Source of the DNA: Alphaproteobacteria bacterium
GTDB taxonomy: Bacteria > Pseudomonadota > Alphaproteobacteria > MPNO01 > UBA830
Length of the DNA: 64,000 bases
NCBI GenBank assembly: GCA_965214975.1
Contig: OZ244055.1
Coordinates: 598,994-662,993 of the forward strand
Reading direction: 5' to 3'
Shown here: piece by piece, positions 5,917 to 27,411 of the stretch
Layout: each line of letters begins with the position of its first letter
Numbering within the stretch: position 1 is the stretch's first letter
Position numbers and translations under genes: made by a program
The notes under the pieces: model-generated
Databases searched by the model: none
Told to the model about the DNA's origin: nothing
Seen by the model: the letters and a program-made list of their open reading frames with translations, nothing else

Positions 5917-7565
5917 GCGCGCGCGCCGGGGGCCGCCGGGCCGCGGGGAGACGGGCGCGCGCGCGCCGCCGGCTGCGAAGCGGCGCGCACGCCGTCGCGA
6001 GGCTGTGGTTCGGGGGGCTGTTCTACCGTCACTCGCTGAAGGGCGCGGTGCCGCGGGCGCTGCCGTTCGTGCCGCGGGAGGAGACGGCCGGAAGCGCCGG
6101 GGAAGGGAGAGCGATCCTCGACGGGCGGGCGCGGTTTCTCGACGCCGCCGCCGCGCCGCGCGTCCGCGGCGCGGCGATGCGGGCGGCGGAGGCGGATCTC
6201 GTCAGGTATCACGGGTTCGACTGGCTGGCCGATCTCGAGGCGGCCGGCGGCGCGGCGGCGCGCGAGCGGGCGGCGGCGCTGATCGCCGCATGGATCGACC
6301 GCAACGCCCGATGGCATCCGGTTTCCTGGCGCCCCGACGTCCTGTCCCGGCGCGTCTGCAACTGGCTCGTGCACGCGACGTTCGCGGCCGGCGGCGGCGG
6401 CGAGGGGTTTCCGCGGCTGTTTCTCGACAGCCTTGCCCGGCAGGTCCGCCATCTCCGCCGCGTGCGGCCGTTCGTCGAGCACGACCTCGGGCGGCTGACG
6501 GCGTCCAAGGCGCTGGTCTACGCGGCGCTCAGCCTGCCCGGCGGCGCGCGCGACGTGCCGGGGCTTCTGCGGCAGCTTCTCGGGAGCTGCTCCGCCCAGC
6601 TTCTTCCCGACGGCGGCCACGTGCGCCGCGACCCGGAAGCGCAGCTCGACGCGCTGCGTCTGCTGGCGGACGTCCGCGACGCCGTCCGGGACGCCGGGCT
6701 GGCCGCGCCCGGCGAGCTTCAGGAGACGATCTCGCGCGTCGCGGCCGTGGCCGGGCTCTTTCGCCACGGCGACGGCGGCCTTGCGGTGTTCGCCGGCTCG
6801 GGCGAGGGCGACCCGGACCGGATCGCGGCGCTTCTCGCGCGCGCCGCCGGCTCCGTGGAGCCGCTGGTGTCCGCGCGGAGCACCGGGTTCGAGCGGGTCG
6901 CGACGCAGCGCGGACTGCTCGTCGTCGACTGCGGACTGCCGCAAGCGCGCGCCGCCGGCACGCTCGCTTTCGAGTTCAGCGTCGGCCCGCAGAGAATCGT
7001 CGTCAACTGCGGCGCCCGGGAGCGCCGCGGCGGCGCCTGGCGGGGGGCGTTCGGCGCCACGGCGGCGCATTCCACTCTCGTCGTCGAGGACACCAACTCC
7101 TCGGTGCTGCGGCCCGACGGATCCCTTGCGCAGGGGCCGGGCCGCGTGACGTGCAGGCGCTCCGAGCGCGACGGGCAGGTCTGGCTCGACACGAGCCACG
7201 ACGGCTACGCCTCGAGGCTTGGCCTCGTCCACCGCCGCCGGTTCCACATGAACAGCGCCGGCACCGAGCTCCGCGGCGAGGACAGCCTGACCGGCAGCGG
7301 CGCGCGCCGGTTCGACATCAGGTTCCATCTGCATCCGACGGTCCGGGCCTCGGCACTCAGGGACGGAACCACGGTTCTGCTCCAGCTTCCGGACCGGGTC
7401 GGATGGCGTCTGCTCTGCCGCGGCGGCACCGCGCGGCTTGAGGAAAGCCTCTACCTGGCGGCGCCCGGGGAGACGCGGCGGTCCGAACAGGTCGTGATTT
7501 CCGGCAGCACGCGCGACGGCGCCGCCGTCGTGAACTGGGCGCTCACCGAACTGTCGCGACGGTAG
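5913..7565 (+). CDS. Heparinase II/III-like family protein (the conserved alphaproteobacterial gene between rpe and purH).
   Basis: The ATG at 5913 overlaps the rpe TGA as ATGA. The 550-aa product ([12 protein letters not shown]...[22 protein letters not shown]...) matches the heparinase II/III-like fold family found at this syntenic position. The 5427 start of the ORF track is rpe antisense-frame junk. Confidence 0.7.
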
Positions 7566-20392: not shown

Positions 20393-22030
20393 ATGACTGG
20401 CGCCGCGCGGATGACCGGAGGCGCGGCGATCGTCGACGCGCTCGCGCGGCACGGCGTCGAGGTCGCGTTCGGCATCCCCGGCGTTCAGCTCGACCCCTTG
20501 TTCGCCGCCCTTCACGACGCCCGCGACCGCATCCGGATCGTCCACACGCGCCACGAGCAGGGGGCTGGGTACATGGCGCTCGGCTACGCCATGGCGACGG
20601 GCAGGCCGGGAACCGCGATCGTGGTTCCCGGGCCGGGCCTCCTCAACGCCTCGTCCGCGATCGCCACCGGCTACGCCGTCAACGCGCCGCTTCTGTGCGT
20701 TGCCGGGCAGATCCCCTCGCGCCTGATCGGCAGGGGAACGGGGCAGCTTCACGAGATTCCCGACCAGCTCGCTCTCGCCAGGGGGCTGACCAAGTGGGCC
20801 GCCCGCATGGACGCCCCGGGCGACGCCCCGGCGGTCGTCGGAGAGGCCTTCCGCCGCCTCGCCGGCGGACGCCGCCGTCCGGTGGTCGTCGAGATGGCGA
20901 TGGACGTGATGGCGGCCGAGGGCGAGGTGCGGCCCCTCGACCCCGCGCCGGCGGAGGCGCCTCCGGCGCCGGATCCGGATTCCGTCGAAGCCGCCGCGAG
21001 ACTCCTCGGCTCCGCCGAAAGGCCGCTCATCGTCGCCGGAGGCGGCGCCGTCGATGCCGGCGAGGGACTGGTCCTGCTCGCGGAGATGCTGCAGGCTCCG
21101 GTGGTCCTGACCCGGGGCGCTCTCGGAACGGTGAGCGCCCGCCATCCCCTGGCCTTCACGCCGCCGTTCGGCCATCGGCTGTGGCGGGACGCGGATGCCG
21201 TGCTCGGAGTCGGGACGCGGCTGGTGCCGATGATCCCGGGCTGGGGAGTCGACGACGCGCTGAAGGTGGTCCGTCTCGACATCGATGCGGCGGAGCTGTC
21301 CCGGAACCGCGCGCCGGATGCGGCGATTCACGCCGATGCGGCAGCCGGGCTGGCCGCGCTTCTCGAAACGCTGCCGGCGCACAACGCGGTCCGCGGCTCC
21401 CGCGCCGAGGAGCTTGCGGAGGTCAGGGCCGCCCTCGACGCCGAGTTCGCGAAGCTCGATCCGCAGGTGCCGATCCTCCGCGCCATCCGCCGGGCGCTTC
21501 CCGAGGACGGGATCTTCGTCGAGGAGCTGACGCAGCCGGGGTACGTCGCGAGGCTGGTCTTTCCGGTCTACGAGCCGCGCACCTACATCCATCCCGGATA
21601 CCAGGGGACGCTGGGCTACGCCGCCCCCACCGCGATGGGCGCGAAGGTGGGGCGTCCGGACCGCAAGGTGCTGGCGATTTCGGGGGACGGCGGCTTCATG
21701 TTCAACGTCCAGGAACTGGCGACCGCCGCGCAGCACGGCATCGACGTCGTGCTGGTGGTCTTCAACGACGGCGCCTACGGCAACGTCAAGCGTTTCCAGC
21801 GGCAGCTGTTCGGCGGCAGGGAGATCGCCGTCGATCTGAGGAATCCGGATTTCATGAAACTCGCCGAGGCGTTCGGCATCCAGGGGCTTCGCGCCCGCAC
21901 GCCGGGCGAACTGGAGCGGGCCATCGTCGAGGGCTTCGGCACCGCGGGACCGACGCTGATCGAGTATCCGATCGGGGAGGTTCCGGATCCGTGGCATCTG
22001 GTCCAGCCCGGAAAGGTGCGTGGAACCTGA
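20393..22030 (+). CDS. Thiamine-pyrophosphate-dependent enzyme (acetolactate synthase / benzoylformate decarboxylase family).
   Basis: 545 aa with the N-terminal Pyr domain (AIVDALARHGVEVAFGIPG...), the central domain, and the C-terminal PP domain (LAISGDGGFMFNVQELATA...NDGAYG). Confidence 0.85.
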   Translation: MTGAARMTGGAAIVDALARHGVEVAFGIPGVQLDPLFAALHDARDRIRIVHTRHEQGAGYMALGYAMATGRPGTAIVVPGPGLLNASSAIATGYAVNAPLLCVAGQIPSRLIGRGTGQLHEIPDQLALARGLTKWAARMDAPGDAPAVVGEAFRRLAGGRRRPVVVEMAMDVMAAEGEVRPLDPAPAEAPPAPDPDSVEAAARLLGSAERPLIVAGGGAVDAGEGLVLLAEMLQAPVVLTRGALGTVSARHPLAFTPPFGHRLWRDADAVLGVGTRLVPMIPGWGVDDALKVVRLDIDAAELSRNRAPDAAIHADAAAGLAALLETLPAHNAVRGSRAEELAEVRAALDAEFAKLDPQVPILRAIRRALPEDGIFVEELTQPGYVARLVFPVYEPRTYIHPGYQGTLGYAAPTAMGAKVGRPDRKVLAISGDGGFMFNVQELATAAQHGIDVVLVVFNDGAYGNVKRFQRQLFGGREIAVDLRNPDFMKLAEAFGIQGLRARTPGELERAIVEGFGTAGPTLIEYPIGEVPDPWHLVQPGKVRGT

Positions 22031-22290
22031 TTCCGCCGGGCGGCGGGACGGGGGTCGCCGGAGCCCGGAGCGTCAGGGCGACCGCCGGGCCGCCGCAGCC
22101 GGCGCGGGGCTCGCGGATCCGGGCGCCGCGGGCGGAGTCGGGTTCGACCGCGACAGCTCCGGGACGGCGAGGCGGCCTCGGCAACGCTGCCGCAGAGGGC
22201 GCCGACACCCGGGCGACACCTCCCGTCGATATTCTCTTCCGCGCCGCCCCGCTCACCTGCCCTCGAAAGGATTGAGCAGCTTGACTCATC
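20568..22290. repeat. Direct repeat copy 1 (~1.72 kb), near-identical to 24570-26285.
   Basis: Direct comparison of the two stretches: only a handful of substitutions (giving A/T, V/I, E/G, G/D, K/R protein differences) and one 1-nt indel near 22262. Copy 1 ends at ...gcagcttgac, immediately followed by the AT-richer IS left end. Confidence 0.9.
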
Positions 22291-22477
22291 TTCGACAGTT
22301 CGAGGGCTGACTTGACGCTCCCGGGACGGGGAAGTCCTGCATTTCAGGGCTTTTCCGCCCCGTCCCGGTGCCGGATTCCAGAAAAAGTGGTGCCACCCTG
22401 CGCTTGAAAGATTCGGACAATACACAATTTTAATGCTCCCTTTCGTGAGAACACTTGGCAGGATGAGTGGTGTCCCA

Positions 22478-23361
22478 ATGGAGGCCACCATGTTCTGCCG
22501 CACCAAGGTCAGCGGTTCCAACACGTACCTCCGGATCGTCGAGAACCGCCGCGAGGGCGGGAAAGTCCGCCAGCGCGTCATCGCGACCCTCGGGCGCCTC
22601 GACCATCTCCAGGCCAGCGGCGCCCTCGACCGCCTGCTCCAGTCCGCCTGCCGCTTCTCCGAACAGCTCGTCGCGCTCGCCGCGCGGCCCGGCGACGGCA
22701 ACGGCGAGGACGGTGCCGTCGTACGCCATGTCGGACTCGCGCTGGCGTTCGAAAGCCTGTGGCGTGCCAGCGGCTGCCGGGAGATCGCGCGGGAGCCGCT
22801 TGGCGGGCGGCGCTTCCGGTTCGACGTCGAGCGCGCGGTCTTCGCCAGCGTGCTCCACCGCATCATGGTCTCGGGCTCCGTCCGCGCGGCCCGCGCGTGG
22901 ATGCGCGACCAGGCCATCGACGGGACGGCGGGGCTCGACCTCCAGCACCCGTGCCGGGCGATGGCGTGGCTGGGAGAGGCGCTGCCGGACGCCGGCCAGC
23001 GTCACTCCACCCATGCGCCGCGCTGCGTGAAGGACGTGTTCGAGGAGGCGCTATTCGCGCGCGAGCGGGATCTGTTCACCGGGCTCGACCTGGTGTTCTT
23101 CGACACCACGTCGCCGCACTTCACCGGCCGGGGCGGCGAGACGATCGGACGCCGCGGGCGCTCGAAGGACCGCCGTGCCGCCAGATGGTTCCGGGGCTGG
23201 TGCTGGATCGGGACGGACGTCCGGTCAGGGCGCGAAAAAGAGCTCGATGGCCTCGTCGCCGCCGCCCACAACGCGATGGCCGAGACCATGAACGAAGGCC
23301 CGGCGTGAGCGATTCCTTTGCCGGATTGCGTGAGCACGGCATCCCGACTATCAAGCCATGA
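22478..23361 (+). pseudogene. IS1634-family transposase, frameshifted and 3'-truncated.
   Basis: MEATMFCRTKVSGSNTYLRIVENRREGGKVRQRVIATLGRLD matches the IS1634/ISNCY-type transposase N-terminus. The conserved SKDHRPDLKQ...GL..DRDG.P segment is split between frame 22433 (GRSKDRRAAR) and frame 22759 (QMVPGLVLDRDGRPV), which indicates a frameshift near 23150-23200. The reading frame stops at 23361 at about half the expected length. Confidence 0.7.
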
Positions 23362-23438
23362 CAGTGCGCCTGCCCTTCGGGCGCGACCTTGTCCTGCGGA
23401 CGGCTTCCAGTTTCGAGCCGTGGACCGATGGCGGAGCT

Positions 23439-24323
23439 TCCATGGCTTGGCTGTTCTTCATCGACGAGAGCGGGCACGACCACAAGCACATGCCCTACGA
23501 GGTGCGCGGCGGCTTCGCGATCCATGTGAGCCAACTCTGGCCGTTCGTGCAGGCGATGCAGGATTTGGAGACCGATTGCTTCGGTTGCCGGCTCGGCGAT
23601 GTTGGCAAGGAGATCAAGGGCTCGACCCTGATCGACCGCAAACGCTTTGCGTTTGCGGTCCAAGGCGAGCCGTTTCCCGACCGGGAGCGGCGGGAACTCT
23701 GCCGATCCTTTCTCGCGCAGAGCCGCACCGGAAACACGCCGGGGCGGGACATGTTCACCGCCTACGGCCAGGCCTGCCTGCGCATGGCTCGGGAAATCAT
23801 CGCGCTTCTGAAGCGAAGCGGCGCCGTCCTGATGGCAGCCGCCATCCCGCGCGGCATCGCAAGGCCGCGGGACACCCGGTTCAACGATTATCTACGCAAG
23901 GACGTGGTGTTCCTGTTCGAGCGGTTCTTCTATTTCCTGGAGAGGAAGCGGGAGCACGGCGTGCTGGTCATGGACGAGACCGACAAGCGGGAGGACCGCC
24001 GCTTCGTCGTCAGAATGGAGAGGTATTTCACGCGAACAGCCACGGGACGGTACCGGACGGCGTGGATCGTGCCGACGCCGTTCTTCGTCTCATCTGACAT
24101 GGCCCGCGCCGTGCAGGCAGCGGATCTGTGCATCTACGCCGTCAACTGGGGCTTCCGCTTACCCGGTCGGGGCATGGACGCGCCGCGCCGTGACGAGATC
24201 GCCGAGATGTTCGGGGCGGATCTGGCCGATCTCCAGTATCGCGGCCAGGGTGTCCGCGACGGTCGAGTGTTCGACAGCTATGGGATCATCTATGTCCCCG
24301 ATCCCTACGATTCACGAGCCTGA
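23439..24323 (+). CDS. DUF3800-like protein.
   Basis: MAWLFFIDESGH (the N-terminal h-h-DESG motif) and a C-terminal SSDMARAVQAADLCIYA (the conserved Q..AD motif), in a ~294-aa product. Its GC is lower than neighbouring genes. I chose the internal ATG at 23439 because the protein family begins at the DESG motif. Confidence 0.6.
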   Translation, partial: SMAWLFFIDESGHDHKHMPYEVRGGFAIHVSQLWPFVQAMQDLETDCFGCRLGDVGKEIKGSTLIDRKRFAFAVQGEPFPDRERRELCRSFLAQSRTGNTPGRDMFTAYGQACLRMAREIIALLKRSGAVLMAAAIPRGIARPRDTRFNDYLRKDVVFLFERFFYFLERKREHGVLVMDETDKREDRRFVVRMERYFTRTATGRYRTAWIVPTPFFVSSDMARAVQAADLCIYAVNWGFRLPGRGMDAPRRDEIAEMFGADLADLQYRGQGVRDGRVFDSYGIIYVPDPYDSRA

Positions 24324-24569
24324 TCACCAAAGGCGAAGCGTGAAAAAGGAGGTAACGCCCCGTCGCTCAATCCCGCGCACCGAGGTGGCGAGTTTCATAC
24401 GGGGCCGAACCTCCACGGGCGAATGTGGCCCGCAATCCGGCGAAAGTCAAGCTTCTGTCCTGGTTCAGGACATATGAGTCGGCGGAGGTTCTTCGGCTGT
24501 CAGGTTGGCAAGGTAGTCTGCGGGGGTTCGTCCGCCAAGGGCTTGGTGCGGTCAGAAGGCGTTGAACTC

Positions 24570-26285
24570 GGTACATGGCGCTCGGCTACGCCATGGCGAC
24601 GGGCAGGCCGGGAACCGCGATCGTGGTTCCCGGGCCGGGCCTCCTCAACGCCTCGTCCGCGATCGCCACCGGCTACACGGTCAACGCGCCGCTTCTGTGC
24701 GTTGCCGGGCAGATCCCCTCGCGCCTGATCGGCAGGGGGACGGGACAGCTTCACGAGATTCCCGACCAGCTCGCTCTCGCCAGGGGGCTGACCAAGTGGG
24801 CCGCCCGCATGGACGCCCCGGGCGACGCCCCGGCGATCGTCGGAGAGGCCTTCCGCCGCCTCGCCGGCGGACGCCGCCGTCCGGTGGTCGTCGAGATGGC
24901 GATGGACGTGATGGCGGCCGAGGGCGAGGTGCGGCCCCTCGACCCCGCGCCGGCGGAGGCGCCTCCGGCGCCGGATCCGGATTCCGTCGAAGCCGCCGCG
25001 AGACTCCTCGGCTCCGCCGAAAGGCCGCTCATCGTCGCCGGAGGCGGCGCCGTCGATGCCGGCGAGGGACTGGTCCTGCTCGCGGAGATGCTGCAGGCTC
25101 CGGTGGTCCTGACCCGGGGCGCTCTCGGAACGGTGAGCGCCCGCCATCCCCTGGCCTTCACGCCGCCGTTCGGCCATCGGCTGTGGCGGGACGCGGATGC
25201 CGTGCTCGGAGTCGGGACGCGGCTGGTGCCGATGATCCCGGGCTGGGGAGTCGACGACGCGCTGAAGGTGGTCCGTCTCGACATCGATGCGGCGGAGCTG
25301 TCCCGGAACCGCGCGCCGGATGCGGCGATTCACGCCGATGCGGCGGCCGGGCTGGCCGCGCTTCTCGAAACGCTGCCGGCGCACAACGCGGTCCGCGGCT
25401 CCCGCGCCGGGGAGCTTGCGGAGGTCAGGGCCGCCCTCGACGCCGAGTTCGCGAAGCTCGATCCGCAGGTGCCGATCCTCCGCGCCATCCGCCGGGCGCT
25501 TCCCGAGGACGGGATCTTCGTCGAGGAGCTGACGCAGCCGGGGTACGTCGCGAGGCTGGTCTTTCCGGTCTACGAGCCGCGCACCTACATCCATCCCGGA
25601 TACCAGGGGACGCTGGGCTACGCCGCCCCCACCGCGATGGGCGCGAAGGTGGGGCGTCCGGACCGCAAGGTGCTGGCGATTTCGGGGGACGGCGGCTTCA
25701 TGTTCAACGTCCAGGAGCTGGCGACCGCCGCGCAGCACGGCATCGACGTCGTGCTGGTGGTCTTCAACGACGGCGCCTACGGCAACGTCAAGCGTTTCCA
25801 GCGGCAGCTGTTCGGCGGCAGGGAGATCGCCGTCGATCTGAGGAATCCGGATTTCATGAAACTCGCCGAGGCGTTCGGCATCCAGGGGCTTCGCGCCCGC
25901 ACGCCGGACGAACTCGAGCGGGCCGTCGCCGAGGGTTTCGGAACCGCGGGACCGACGCTGATCGAGTATCCGATCGGGGAGGTTCCGGATCCGTGGCATC
26001 TGGTCCAGCCCGGAAGGGTCCGCGGAACCTGATTCCGCCGGGCGGCGGGACGGGGGTCGCCGGAGCCCGGAGCGTCAGGGCGACCGCCGGGCCGCCGCAG
26101 CCGGCGCGGGGCTCGCGGATCTGGGCGCCGCGGGCGGAGTCGGGTTCGACCGCGACGGCTCCGGGACGGCGAGGCGGCCTCGGCAACGCTGCCGCAGAGG
26201 GCGCCGACACCCGGGCGACACCTCCCGTCGATATTCTCTTCCGCGCCGCCCCGCTCACCGCCCTCGAACGGATTGAGCAGCTTGA
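24570..26285. repeat. Direct repeat copy 2 (~1.72 kb).
   Basis: It starts at ggtacatggcgctcggctacgcc and matches 20568-22290. It ends at ...gcagcttgac, followed by an 18-bp tandem duplication (ttgacatcgagtttccgg twice) and then unique vapC sequence. Confidence 0.9.
24575..26032 (+). pseudogene. N-terminally truncated duplicate of the TPP-dependent enzyme gene (codons 61-545 only).
   Basis: MALGYAMATGRPGTAIVVPG... is identical to residues 61 onward of the 20393..22030 product apart from five substitutions. It lacks the first 60 codons (the start of the Pyr domain) and any native upstream region. An ATG exists at the internal Met, so expression cannot be excluded. Confidence 0.6.
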
Positions 26286-26679
26286 CATCGAGTTTCCGGT
26301 TGACATCGAGTTTCCGGAAGTCCCGAACGTTCCGCGTCGCGACCGTCAACCGGTGGACTCTCGCAGTGGCTGCGATCATGGCGTCCTCGAGCAGGGTATC
26401 CGACTTGCGGTGCTTGAGACGCGCCCACTCCCGGAAAGACGCCGTGTCCATCGCAAGGATGCCGTAGCTGTCGACTATCCGGTCGAGCCAGAACGCGAGT
26501 TCTTCCGCCTTCGCCACGTCCTGCTTGCGCGTCGCTTCGATACCGGCCTGGATTTCGCCGACCGTGACGGCCGACAGGAACAGTCGATCGGCGGGAACCC
26601 CTTCGATCCACTTCAAAACCCTCTTGTGGGGCCGGGGACGGCGGAGCTCCGGGACGACGTTGGTGTCCAACAGGTACAC
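25777..26679 (-). CDS. vapC: PIN-domain toxin VapC, with an aberrant C-terminal read-through. The PIN core is about 26270..26679.
   Basis: MYLLDTNVVPELRRPRPH...LSAVTVGEIQAGIE...TRNVRDFRKLDV is a VapC PIN domain with a GTG start. The expected end KLLNPFEGR* is replaced by RKLDVN-RKLDV (an 18-bp tandem duplication) and a 1-nt indel that removes the stop. The ORF therefore runs ~165 extra codons into the antisense of repeat copy 2. Confidence 0.65.
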   Translation of the reverse strand: MYLLDTNVVPELRRPRPHKRVLKWIEGVPADRLFLSAVTVGEIQAGIEATRKQDVAKAEELAFWLDRIVDSYGILAMDTASFREWARLKHRKSDTLLEDAMIAATARVHRLTVATRNVRDFRKLDVNRKLDVKLLNPFEGGERGGAEENIDGRCRPGVGALCGSVAEAASPSRSRRGRTRLRPRRPDPRAPRRLRRPGGRPDAPGSGDPRPAARRNQVPRTLPGWTRCHGSGTSPIGYSISVGPAVPKPSATARSSSSGVRARSPWMPNASASFMKSGFLRSTAISLPPNSCRWKRLTLP

Positions 26680-26686
26680 CGCCGTC

Positions 26687-26947
26687 CTATTCGAGGGCTG
26701 ATGCCGGACGGGAACGGTGCTGCGAGCGAGGCGGCGCGAGCGCCTCGATGCGGGGTTCCGGCGCGAGCAGCATCTCCTTCAGATCAGGTTGCGCTGTTTC
26801 CCGCAACCTCCGCCACTGCCCGATCGGCAACAGCACCGCCGCCTCGACGCCACGCCTGGTCACGATCTGCGGCCCCTCGTTGATGCTCGCTTCAAGGAAC
26901 TCGCCGAATCGGGCCTTCGCTTCCTGCACCTGCCATGACCTGCCCAT
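26687..26947 (-). CDS. Phd/YefM-type antitoxin (VapB partner).
   Basis: MGRSWQVQEAKARFGEFLEASINEGPQIVTRRGVEAAVLLPIGQWRRL is the Phd/YefM fold, 86 aa, ending 8 nt before the vapC start. An alternative ATG lies at 26980. Confidence 0.7.
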   Translation of the reverse strand: MGRSWQVQEAKARFGEFLEASINEGPQIVTRRGVEAAVLLPIGQWRRLRETAQPDLKEMLLAPEPRIEALAPPRSQHRSRPASALE

Positions 26948-27411
26948 GATTTTCTCCGCGTCAAGGTGCTGACCATTCATACAACCCTCCGGGATCGGGT
27001 GCAAGCCGGCGCCGAATCCGCGGAACCGGGGTGCCCGGTCCGAACGCGCCCCAGACTCTTCATTTCGTGCAACTGCCCGGGTGCCCCATCTCCGGTGACG
27101 GCGTGCCGGCAACTGTCGCCACGGAGGCGGCGTCCGCTCGCCTGTTGGCATTACAGCCTTGAGGGTTCAAGGTTCGCTCCGGTGCGGGACAGGAGTGTCC
27201 CACGCTCCCCGATTGCGGCCGATTCCGGTCGATCCGAGCCGCGTCCGGGCGTCGCGGCTGGCGCGCGACGGTCCGTTTCGCGGGTTCGCGGTCTTCTTTC
27301 GGGGCGGGATTCGGGTTCGGAGGCGCCGGATGCCGCTGCCGGCGGACCGGCGGCGTGGCGGCAGCGCCCCGCCTCCCGGATGGCTCTCGATGCAGACGGA
27401 ATGAGGAGGCA

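What the first reader, a model, noticed from the sequence alone, without database searches (positions are those of the whole stretch)
23439..24323. Intact DUF3800-family gene carried as passenger inside the decayed IS element
The transposase is frameshifted and truncated, yet the adjacent 294-aa ORF is intact. It has the N-terminal FIDESG motif and the C-terminal Q..AD motif that define DUF3800, a family with no assigned biochemical function that is often found on mobile or accessory DNA. A passenger that is retained while its vehicle decays, with lower GC than the host, is consistent with selection. Given its position next to a toxin-antitoxin pair, it could be a stress or defence module.
Basis: partly seen in the sequence, partly recalled or inferred. 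Interest (0 to 1): 0.65.

Follow-up and report, generated by a model that had tools for sequence, protein, structure and literature searches.

The report
DUF3800 gene with partner RNA
The intact gene is a real DUF3800 family member. It is followed by a conserved structured RNA that accompanies this gene across many bacterial phyla and matches no Rfam family, so it is a two-part protein-plus-RNA module of unknown function wedged between two broken insertion sequences.

Summary
An intact 293-aa DUF3800 gene lies at 23442-24323 (Pfam E=6e-14). It keeps all family-invariant residues, has dN/dS of 0.1-0.2, and has lower GC than its surroundings.

Right after the stop codon, at 24342-24456, is a ~110-nt structured RNA motif:
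- It follows the gene in 83 hits across 85 related loci from more than 10 phyla.
- In a metagenome scan seeded on the RNA alone, 69 of 76 assessable loci had DUF3800 directly upstream.
- Its helices covary.
- It matches no Rfam family.

DUF3800 genes are already known to pair with 11 unrelated RNA motifs, so this is a further member of a known but unexplained kind.

"Passenger inside a decayed IS" is only partly right. A 1227-bp gene+RNA block sits between the left 45% of an IS1634-family element and a short remnant resembling an rve-type transposase. The whole 2.28-kb insert is bracketed by a 1.72-kb direct repeat of a host TPP-enzyme gene. VapBC adjacency is incidental.

No defence-database hit was found, but about 8% of homologues are embedded in type I R-M operons.

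My best guess, inferred and untested, is an RNA-partnered nuclease acting as an addiction or defence module.

The parts
23442..24323 (+). DUF3800 coding sequence (293 aa plus stop), intact
   Evidence: Pfam PF12686 E=6.4e-14. Full length against 22 close and 29 distant homologues with all invariant residues kept. dN/dS 0.10-0.20. AF2 model pLDDT 83, pTM 0.85.
24342..24456 (+). Conserved structured RNA motif in the 3' UTR of the DUF3800 gene. P1 GGAGGU/ACCUCC is at 24348-24353 / 24409-24414. P1b GCCCCGU/ACGGGGC is at 24357-24363 / 24399-24405. There is an apical stem. The 3' domain ends in AAAGUCAAG, with GUCAAG at 24446-24451.
   Evidence: Covariance model R1 gives 59 bits, E=2.6e-14, the only hit in the 64-kb window (the window copy was in the seed). 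The same motif lies directly 3' of the gene in 83 hits over 85 loci. Covariation in P1/P1b/P2. The MFE fold reproduces P1/P1b, -44.8 kcal/mol, z=-1.84. No Rfam 15 match.
23229..23441 (+). 213 nt inherited together with the gene. It holds the last 26 codons and stop (23229-23308) of an unrelated upstream gene (380-aa or 118-aa ORF in relatives) plus the intergenic leader, with GGAG 8 nt before the ATG.
   Evidence: 82% identity (175/213) to L081 over these 213 nt, as part of the 92%-identical 1227-bp block shared with L081-L084. Homology starts exactly at 23229.
22284..23226 (+). Left ~45% of an IS1634-family insertion sequence. Terminal inverted repeat at ~22284-22300. Transposase ATG at 22490, frameshift near 23176, truncated at residue 248.
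   Evidence: NCBIfam NF033559 E=1.2e-17, profile positions 1-161 of 483. tblastn with 372-503-aa relatives. 82-83% DNA identity to a 2047-bp element in L086/L087, and a 20-nt inverted match to that element's other end.
24456..24567 (-). Probable remnant of a second IS. It encodes the C-terminal ~35 codons of an rve-type (IS3/IS481-like) transposase with an in-frame stop. Its terminus, TGTCCTGG..., abuts the end of the RNA.
   Evidence: Minus-strand translation ..EFNAF*PHQALGGRTPADYLANLTAEEPPPTHMS*. Pfam rve_3 E=3e-4, 20.9 bits, profile positions 51-67 of 67, below the 26.5-bit cut-off. Homology to L081-L085 stops exactly at 24455. This is suggestive only.
20568..22285 (+). Direct repeat copy R1. 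It covers most of an intact TPP-dependent enzyme gene (20393-22030), the intergenic DNA, and the last codons of vapC. It ends exactly at the IS1634 left end.
   Evidence: Ungapped identity at offset 4002, about 98.7%. Pfam TPP_enzyme_N/M/C and NCBIfam PRK08266.
24570..26286 (+). Direct repeat copy R2. It holds a 5'-truncated TPP-enzyme gene copy (ORF 24575-26032) and continues into vapC.
26282..26950 (-). VapC (PIN domain) and Phd/YefM antitoxin pair. These are host neighbours and not part of the module.
   Evidence: Pfam PIN E=4.4e-17 and PhdYeFM_antitox E=1.6e-14.

Best explanation
The ORF is a functional DUF3800 gene that forms a self-contained two-part module with a structured RNA of about 100-115 nt encoded right after its stop codon. 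The RNA is most probably made as the 3' end of the same transcript.

Shown: the protein and the RNA travel together across more than 10 phyla and on plasmids, with no other conserved partner gene. Conservation begins at the ATG and ends at the RNA's GUCAAG tail.

Inferred: the protein is a metal-dependent nuclease with the RNase H-like fold proposed in the literature, with candidate catalytic carboxylates D8/E9, D178 and D228. It binds, and possibly processes, its own 3' RNA. The pair would then act as an addictive or defensive protein-RNA module, like a toxin-antitoxin system in which one partner holds the other in check. Which partner is harmful is not known. An accessory DUF3800 gene that scored as essential in Legionella Tn-seq hints that the protein may be the protective partner.

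An addictive or selected module would explain why both parts remain intact while the IS elements on either side and the neighbouring duplicated gene have decayed.
For: Anatomy, shown:
- Model R1 finds the RNA directly 3' of the gene on the same strand in 83 hits over 85 loci.
- A search seeded on the RNA pattern alone in metagenomes returned 80 loci. Of these, 69 have DUF3800 immediately upstream, 4 have too little upstream sequence, and 7 do not.
- Plasmid homologues at 37-40% identity, including Phaeobacter pGal_E78, still carry a diverged short form of the motif at the stop codon.
- In P1/P1b/P2 of the short form, 90.7% of cells are paired against 33-54% when partners are slid. There are 51 compensatory cells against 19.4 in shuffles, 0 of 500 shuffles reaching the observed value. 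The long form gives the same picture.
- The stop-to-RNA distance is usually 3-24 nt, and no terminator is predicted between gene and RNA in the window.
- No conserved neighbouring protein cluster.
- Homology between 1063 locus pairs starts at the ATG (median 0) and ends within or at the RNA.

Selection:
- dN/dS 0.10-0.20 and all invariant residues kept.

Function, circumstantial:
- 6 of 75 downstream neighbours are type I HsdR. HsdM lies upstream in 7 loci, and HsdS matches occur among the immediate upstream neighbours (2 by Pfam, 3 by PADLOC).
- Other immediate neighbours hit type III methyltransferase, MADS, Hma and PD-T4-6 models.
- The plasmid copy lies directly after repC.
- Literature: RNase H-like fold predictions, DUF3800 as a retron type VII effector, and DUF3800 as an accessory of type V and subtype VI-F CRISPR loci (PMC10910872, PMC7736814, PMC13594972, PMC12669027). 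Eleven RNA motifs are associated with DUF3800 genes (PMC5737381). A strain-specific DUF3800 gene scored essential and was discussed alongside antitoxins (10.1101/2020.10.01.323287).
Against: - No experiment bears on function.
- PADLOC, NCBIfam and PHROGs give no functional hit.
- The layout differs from known type III TA systems, which have tandem RNA repeats upstream of the toxin.
- Most neighbours are housekeeping genes, so the defence-island signal is modest.
- This clade was not found in phages or viral contigs.
- The 3' half of the RNA has no consistent helix (mean z=-0.49).
- Transcription of the RNA is inferred, not shown.
- The Legionella DUF3800 gene may belong to another clade.
Confidence: 0.45

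Rival explanations
1. The downstream element is only a cis-acting 3' UTR signal for the DUF3800 mRNA, controlling stability, 3'-end formation or autoregulation of translation. The protein would have an unrelated nucleic-acid housekeeping or repair role. There would be no trans-acting RNA partner and no addiction or defence function.
For: The RNA is always on the same strand, 3-24 nt after the stop codon. Most neighbours are housekeeping genes. No defence-database hit.
Against: - About 100 nt are conserved across phyla with invariant internal-loop nucleotides, which is far more than typical 3' stabilisers.
- L012 has a second, inverted orphan copy upstream of the gene.
- In L032 and L158 a 502-aa ORF lies between gene and RNA, yet the RNA is still conserved.
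- L102, L110 and L114 carry the RNA with no DUF3800 detected upstream.
- Weinberg et al. report other DUF3800 motifs on either side of the gene and in either orientation.
- The gene is sporadic, in about 478 of 185,579 species genomes, which fits an accessory role.
Confidence: 0.2
2. The gene+RNA is itself a mobile element whose RNase H-like protein uses the RNA for its own mobility. This would be analogous to TnpB/IscB with omega RNA at the element's 3' end, or to IS110 with bridge RNA.
For: - The literature proposes an RNase H/RuvC-like fold.
- The RNA abuts the 3' limit of conservation, and flanks diverge immediately after GUCAAG.
- The module occurs in unrelated contexts in many phyla.
- The 1227-bp block is the only sequence the window shares with L082/L083.
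Against: - No conserved left end: homology starts at the ATG.
- No terminal repeats and no evidence of multiple copies per genome.
- The RNA has no hypervariable guide-like segment beyond a 5-7-nt linker.
- At 293 aa the protein has no second (transposase or recombinase) domain by Pfam.
- In the window, both block boundaries are explained by IS junctions.
- Sharp boundaries between distant loci are expected from selection on the functional parts alone.
Confidence: 0.07
3. The conserved downstream element acts as DNA rather than RNA, for example as a folded single-strand recombination site like an integron attC. That would make the promoterless ORF a gene cassette.
For: The layout is cassette-like: conservation runs from the ATG to a structured 3' element, no conserved promoter, varied contexts.
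Against: - Sequence is highly conserved and specific to one gene family, unlike attC sites.
- Neighbours are not cassette arrays, and no integrase is among the recurrent neighbour families.
- There is no GTTRRRY core.
- A few G-U pairs are kept in the helices.
Confidence: 0.05
4. The gene is a leftover that is intact only by chance or because it arrived recently, and it has no current function in this genome.
For: It sits in a heavily rearranged junkyard of two broken IS elements, a duplicated truncated gene and an altered vapC 3' end. No sigma-70-like promoter is predicted upstream.
Against: - The 882-nt ORF and the 115-nt RNA both keep all conserved positions.
- Both flanking deletions or insertions stop just outside them, 213 nt upstream and 4 nt downstream.
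- Window-specific substitutions are conservative.
- dN/dS is 0.2, though this cannot isolate the terminal branch.
Confidence: 0.1

Closest known systems
DUF3800-associated RNA motifs DUF3800-I to DUF3800-XI (Weinberg et al. 2017, PMC5737381; Rfam holds at least RF02969 DUF3800-I and RF02968 DUF3800-IX)
   Same: A conserved, covariation-supported structured RNA encoded next to a DUF3800 gene. It is found in several phyla and has no known function.
   Different: No Rfam 15 model matches this RNA even at E<=10 on a 201-nt query. It therefore appears to be a further, separate motif. It is strictly 3' of the gene on the same strand.
Type III toxin-antitoxin systems (ToxIN, CptIN, TenpIN)
   Same: A single protein gene plus a cis-encoded structured RNA. 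These are accessory, horizontally spread and found on plasmids. A nuclease that may process its own RNA partner.
   Different: In those systems the RNA antitoxin is a tandem repeat array upstream of the toxin, with a terminator in between, and the toxin has a ToxN/Kid-like fold. Here there is a single RNA copy downstream and a predicted RNase H-like protein. Toxicity is untested.
Retron type VII (RT plus DUF3800 effector; Mestre et al. 2020, PMC7736814)
   Same: A DUF3800 protein working with a structured non-coding nucleic acid in a presumed defence context.
   Different: No reverse transcriptase is adjacent in the window or among the recurrent neighbour clusters and the 25 most frequent neighbour Pfam families. 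According to that paper, retron-linked DUF3800 lacks the Q of QxxD. This protein has QAAD.
TPR-DUF3800 accessory proteins of Cas12a2/Cas12a3 and subtype VI-F CRISPR loci (PMC10910872, PMC13594972, PMC12669027)
   Same: The same domain family. A predicted RNase H-fold nuclease placed next to RNA-guided abortive-infection effectors.
   Different: No TPR domain, no cas genes and no CRISPR array here. This is a stand-alone 293-aa protein.
PrrC/RloC-type genes embedded in type I restriction-modification operons (from my own knowledge)
   Same: In 7 of 80 homologous loci the gene+RNA lies in the type I R-M region, with hsdM 1.3-2.9 kb upstream on the same strand. In 5 of these, hsdR follows within about 350 nt.
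   Different: No sequence or domain relation to PrrC or RloC. The window copy is not in an R-M operon.

Membership tests
DUF3800 (Pfam PF12686) | Profile HMM match above the curated gathering score over the whole domain | tested here: met
   E=6.4e-14, 53.3 bits against a 21-bit cut-off, profile positions 1-148 of 149.
DUF3800 (Pfam PF12686) | N-terminal D-E motif and C-terminal QxxD motif | tested here: met
   FIDESG has D8/E9 and QAAD has Q225/D228. E9 and D228 are invariant and D8 is >=90% conserved in 30-50%-identical relatives.
RNase H-like nuclease superfamily | RNase H-like fold (central mixed beta-sheet flanked by helices) recognisable by structure comparison | tested here: inconclusive
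RNase H-like nuclease superfamily | Conserved carboxylates at the end of strand 1, at the end of a later strand, and on a C-terminal helix | tested here: met
   In the model's secondary structure, D8/E9 lie at the end of the first strand, D178 at the end of strand 173-178, and D228 on helix 219-238. All are conserved. I could not check their 3-D proximity.
RNase H-like nuclease superfamily | Detectable sequence or profile similarity to RNase HI/HII | tested here: not met
   Profile searches against PDB sequences gave no relevant hit.
Known DUF3800-associated RNA motifs in Rfam (DUF3800-I, -IX and others) | Covariance-model match to an existing Rfam family | tested here: not met
   No hit at gathering or at E<=10 for the window, and none at gathering for 11 loci, E<=10 for one further stretch, or E<=0.1 for two plasmid loci.
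DUF3800-associated RNA motifs as a kind | Structured RNA with covariation, consistently adjacent to DUF3800 genes | tested here: met
Type III toxin-antitoxin system | Tandem repeats of the antitoxin RNA upstream of the toxin gene, separated by a terminator | tested here: not met
   There is one RNA copy downstream of the gene, no tandem repeats, and no terminator between them.
Type III toxin-antitoxin system | Protein toxic on its own and neutralised by the RNA | not testable with these tools
   This needs expression experiments.
Passenger gene of a single IS, or a composite transposon | Gene lies between the two ends of one IS, or between two complete IS copies with outward-facing ends | tested here: not met
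   Only the IS1634 left end and left 45% are present, and no right end. The right-hand rve-type remnant is about 110 nt with its terminus facing the gene.
Catalogued anti-phage defence systems (PADLOC-DB 2.0) | HMM match to a defence-system component | tested here: not met
   No family at E<=0.1.
Retron type VII | Adjacent retron reverse transcriptase and msr/msd ncRNA | tested here: not met
   In the window the flanking ORFs are the IS1634 transposase fragment and the TPP-enzyme gene copy. No RT is among the recurrent neighbour clusters or the 25 most frequent neighbour Pfam families. No retron RNA family was hit in Rfam.
CRISPR-associated TPR-DUF3800 | TPR domain fused to DUF3800 and neighbouring cas12/cas13 genes | tested here: not met
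   Pfam finds only DUF3800 in a 293-aa protein, and the neighbours are a transposase fragment and a TPP-enzyme gene.

The most novel reading that the evidence does not exclude
This DUF3800 clade and its 3' RNA could be a new class of protein-RNA addiction or defence system in which an RNase H-like nuclease and a structured RNA control each other. One version is an RNA toxin kept in check by the nuclease. Two observations fit that version: the RNA's invariant GGAG/CUCC helix has the sequence of a Shine-Dalgarno/anti-Shine-Dalgarno duplex, and an accessory DUF3800 gene scored as essential in Legionella. If so, the eleven other unexplained DUF3800 RNA motifs would be variants of the same system.
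Probability: 0.25. Interest if true: 0.8.

Novelty: new member of a known kind. Interest (0 to 1): 0.55.

Why it matters
DUF3800 proteins keep turning up beside retrons, CRISPR effectors and a dozen unrelated structured RNAs, yet nobody knows what the protein-RNA pair does. This clade gives a compact and very widespread example:
- One 293-aa gene plus one ~100-nt RNA, with no other conserved partner.
- Clear covariation in the RNA helices.
- Copies in cultivable bacteria, for example directly after repC on Phaeobacter gallaeciensis plasmid pGal_E78.

That makes the question open to simple expression, binding and plasmid-stability experiments. For genome annotation, it shows that a "hypothetical DUF3800 gene" should be annotated together with its downstream RNA.

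Tried and rejected
Searches that found nothing:
- Rfam, both gathering and permissive, on the window and on related loci.
- PADLOC and NCBIfam gave nothing for the protein. PHROGs gave one weak hit to a family of unknown function.
- Foldseek against PDB gave nothing significant. BFVD returned only a phage DUF3800 protein.
- Profile searches against PDB sequences, and hhalign against RNase HII.
- tRNA scan of the region.
- This clade in phage genomes and IMG/VR viral contigs.
- The window's DUF3800 protein and P0121 are not on record in the contig index, so I did not name the source organism.

Ideas considered and dropped:
- A small ORF starting at the AUG inside GGAGGCAAUGCC. Many copies have ACG there, the spacing to GGAGG is 2 nt, and substitutions follow base-pairing rather than codons.
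- A conserved hairpin in the RNA's 3' domain. Per-sequence folding gives a mean z of only -0.49.
- RNAalifold recovered only P1 and three pairs of P1b. I proposed P2 and the extended P1b by eye and then tested them by pair counting.
- A conserved upstream partner gene or promoter. Upstream DNA is conserved only among close relatives.
- A functional link to VapBC, which rests on adjacency produced by rearrangement.
- Reading the sharp module boundaries as evidence of self-mobility. Between distant loci they are what selection on the ORF and RNA alone would produce.
Full report
**Observation.**
The ORF is real, but its true start is the ATG at 23442; 23439 is the preceding Ser codon. The product is 293 aa, ending with the stop at 24321-24323. 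Pfam PF12686 matches at E=6.4e-14 over the whole profile. A search of 5.8 billion proteins found 2179 relatives; the best 120 listed are 279-348 aa, mostly 292-295. A search of 1.84 billion cluster representatives found 727 at E<=1e-3.

In an alignment with 29 relatives of 30-50% identity, E9, G11, K59, P213, D228, Y232 and R239 are invariant. D8, S10, R152, D154 and D178 are at least 90% conserved. The window protein keeps all of them.

dN/dS is 0.20 against the nearest relatives and about 0.10 against 81-83%-identical ones. GC is 0.62-0.65 against 0.72-0.75 in the flanks. The gene is intact, foreign in composition, and belongs to a lineage under purifying selection.

The DNA just downstream of the stop codon is conserved across most of 80 loci fetched by protein similarity from species genomes. 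These include Alpha- and Gammaproteobacteria, Planctomycetota, Acidobacteriota, Binatia, Nitrospirota, Cyanobacteria and Bacteroidia.

The consensus is:
AAAAAGGAGGCAAYGCC - [inner stem-loop, short or long form] - GGCCGAGCCUCCA - N5-7 - A(G)UAU.. - variable ~20 nt - AAAGUCAAG.

Helix P1 (GGAGGC/GCCUCC) covaries: GGAGGU/ACCUCC in the window, GGAGAU/AUCUCC and GGAGAC/GUCUCC elsewhere. On 40 short-form sequences, 14 pairs in P1/P1b/P2 gave these counts:
- 90.7% of cells form standard pairs, against 33-54% when partners are slid.
- 7 pairs show changes on both sides.
- 51 cells are compensatory, against 19.4 +/- 3.2 in shuffles (0 of 500 reach the observed value).

The 25 long-form sequences, which include the window, give the same picture for P1 and a 7-bp P1b. 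The window copy folds into P1, P1b and an apical stem at -44.8 kcal/mol, z=-1.84.

A covariance model (R1) finds one hit in the 64-kb window, at 24342-24456 (59 bits, E=2.6e-14; the window sequence was in the seed). It finds 83 hits in 85 loci. All but two lie directly 3' of the DUF3800 gene on the same strand; the exceptions are L032 and an extra inverted copy in L012.

The reverse test was a metagenome scan with a pattern taken from the RNA alone. It returned 80 loci:
- 69 have DUF3800 directly upstream.
- 4 have too little upstream sequence.
- Of the 7 exceptions, 2 are chance matches, 1 has a DUF3800 remnant, and 1 has a 502-aa ORF inserted between gene and RNA.

Plasmid homologues at only 37-40% identity still carry a shortened version at the stop codon. 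In Phaeobacter pGal_E78 it scores 24 bits, E=2e-4; in a Sphingomonas plasmid it scores 15 bits.

No Rfam 15 family matches, even at E<=10 on a 201-nt query. Rfam contains at least DUF3800-I and DUF3800-IX. The 3' half of the RNA shows conserved sequence blocks but no consistent helix. A coding reading was rejected (see Tried and rejected).

**Surroundings.**
The region is a patchwork.
- A 1.72-kb direct repeat (20568-22285 and 24570-26286, about 98.7% identical, offset 4002) duplicates most of a TPP-dependent enzyme gene and the last codons of vapC.
- The 2.28-kb insert between the copies begins exactly with the left inverted repeat of an IS1634-family element. Comparison with a 2047-bp element in L086/L087 shows that only its first ~945 bp remain. 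The transposase is frameshifted near 23176 and cut at residue 248, at 23226.
- From 23229 to 24455, a 1227-bp block is 92% identical to loci L081-L084. There it lies at the edge of an island with SSB and RelE/HTH genes next to a MarR-HpaB operon, and no IS1634 is present.
- The block comprises the last 26 codons of an unrelated upstream gene, the DUF3800 gene and the RNA. It is the only sequence the whole window shares with those loci.
- A short contig from another sample (L085) has the same IS1634|block junction but the MarR-side right flank. The IS junction therefore predates the window-specific rearrangement.
- Homology stops 4 nt after GUCAAG. The next 112 nt encode, on the minus strand, what looks like the C-terminus of an rve-type transposase with an in-frame stop (rve_3 E=3e-4, below cut-off).

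The gene is therefore trapped between remnants of two different IS elements and was probably moved by them. It is not cargo inside one IS. The VapC/Phd pair belongs to the host side of the repeat, and its proximity is incidental.

**Context elsewhere.**
Among 80 loci no neighbouring protein cluster is shared by more than 9 loci. Most neighbours are ordinary metabolic or informational genes.

The one recurrent theme is type I restriction-modification:
- HsdR is the immediate downstream neighbour in 6 of 75 loci.
- In 7 loci hsdM lies 1.3-2.9 kb upstream on the same strand. In 5 of these, hsdR follows within about 350 nt.

PADLOC on immediate neighbours adds type I specificity subunits (3), MADS mad5 (3), type III methyltransferases (2), Hma (2) and PD-T4-6 (1). 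My rough expectation, which I did not measure, is that defence genes make up one to two percent of a genome; against that this is an enrichment, but a modest one. On Phaeobacter plasmids the gene follows repC directly. This clade was not found in phage genomes or in 2.9 million viral contigs.

**The protein.**
AlphaFold2 gives a confident model (pLDDT 83.3, pTM 0.85). D8/E9 are at the end of the first strand, D178 is at the end of a later strand, and D228 is on a C-terminal helix. That arrangement fits the RNase H-like fold reported by others (PMC10910872, PMC7736814, PMC12669027).

My own comparisons were inconclusive. Foldseek against PDB found nothing at E<=1e-3, and the only thematic hint was weak RNase HI, NurA and hexokinase matches. 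BFVD returned only a phage DUF3800 protein. Sequence-profile searches found nothing. The more sensitive structure libraries were unavailable.

**Mechanism.**
Shown: a protein gene and a structured RNA are inherited together as a unit that runs from the ATG to GUCAAG, with no other conserved component.

Inferred: the RNA is the 3' part of the gene's transcript. The protein is a nuclease that binds or processes it. The pair behaves as an addiction or defence module. The supporting points are:
- Its accessory and sporadic distribution.
- Its R-M and plasmid-replicon neighbourhoods.
- The roles of other DUF3800 proteins as retron effectors and CRISPR accessories.
- Its survival here while everything around it decayed.
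- A Legionella Tn-seq study in which a strain-specific DUF3800 gene scored as essential and was discussed alongside antitoxin genes.

That last result hints that the protein could be the protective partner, but it concerns a possibly different clade. I put about 0.45 on the addiction/defence reading and about 0.95 on the gene+RNA anatomy. The rivals are a purely cis-acting 3' UTR element, a self-mobile RNA-dependent element, a DNA-level recombination site, and a functionless leftover. Each is listed above with its evidence.

**Comparison and novelty.**
The gene is a plain member of DUF3800. It fails the tests for type III TA architecture, retron type VII, TPR-DUF3800/CRISPR association, PADLOC systems, and IS passenger status in the strict sense.

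Weinberg et al. (2017) already described eleven unrelated RNA motifs next to DUF3800 genes and could not explain them. The motif here matches none of those held in Rfam, so it looks like a further member of that set. I could not read that paper's supplementary files, so I cannot exclude that it equals a published motif absent from Rfam.

I therefore rate the finding as a new member of a known, still unexplained kind. The tightly linked, widely distributed RNA raises the interest to moderate.

Noticed in passing
window 20568-22285 and 24570-26286: A 1.72-kb direct repeat, about 98.7% identical with clustered mismatches, duplicates most of a TPP-dependent enzyme gene. The second copy lacks its first ~59 codons. 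The repeat brackets the 2.28-kb IS/DUF3800 insert. Possible origins are an unusually long IS1634-type target duplication, Campbell-type integration of a circle carrying R plus the insert, or an assembly artefact. I did not resolve this.
   Followed up: partly
window 26282-26317 (minus-strand vapC 3' end): An 18-nt unit, ttgacatcgagtttccgg, is tandemly duplicated, giving ..RKLDVNRKLDVK.. in VapC. The vapC frame then has no stop until 25777, a 300-aa ORF. The IS1634 left end in copy R1 is joined right after the same ttgac, so the duplication may be a footprint of IS activity.
   Followed up: no
window 22433-23308: The 291-aa ORF upstream of DUF3800 is a chimera. It joins the IS1634 transposase N-terminus, a frameshifted stretch, and the last 26 codons of an unrelated gene. 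In relatives L082/L083 that gene is a 380-aa protein with no Pfam match.
   Followed up: partly
L012 5771-5884 (minus strand), with the regular copy at 6884-6997: One locus has a second, inverted copy of the RNA motif (53 bits) upstream of the DUF3800 gene, about 85% identical by eye to the downstream copy. The gene is therefore flanked by inverted RNA copies.
   Followed up: no
L032 1928-3433 and L158: In two loci a 502-aa ORF with no Pfam hit sits between the DUF3800 stop codon and the RNA motif, and the motif remains conserved. It may be an insertion element that targets this junction.
   Followed up: no
L035, L046, L060, L062, L070, L075, L080: These loci have hsdM 1.3-2.9 kb upstream of the DUF3800+RNA module on the same strand. 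In L035, L046, L062, L070 and L080, hsdR follows within 88-260 nt. In L075 it is 3.2 kb downstream. In L060, hsdR and the RNA motif were not detected.
   Followed up: partly
L088 (Phaeobacter gallaeciensis DSM 26640 plasmid pGal_E78) 1855-2813: A 39%-identical DUF3800 gene lies directly after repC and carries a shortened version of the RNA motif at its stop codon. This is a cultivable system for experiments.
   Followed up: partly
window 24445-24452 and 23445-23452: The RNA's 3' tail AGUCAAGC is complementary, with one G-U pair, to GCUUGGCU at codons 2-4 of the DUF3800 ORF (A-W-L). The Trp codon cannot vary, so covariation cannot test this, and it may be chance.
   Followed up: no
L102, L110, L114: These metagenome contigs carry a good copy of the RNA motif with no DUF3800 detected upstream (tblastn E<=1e-5). 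They may be orphan RNAs or have partners too diverged to detect.
   Followed up: partly
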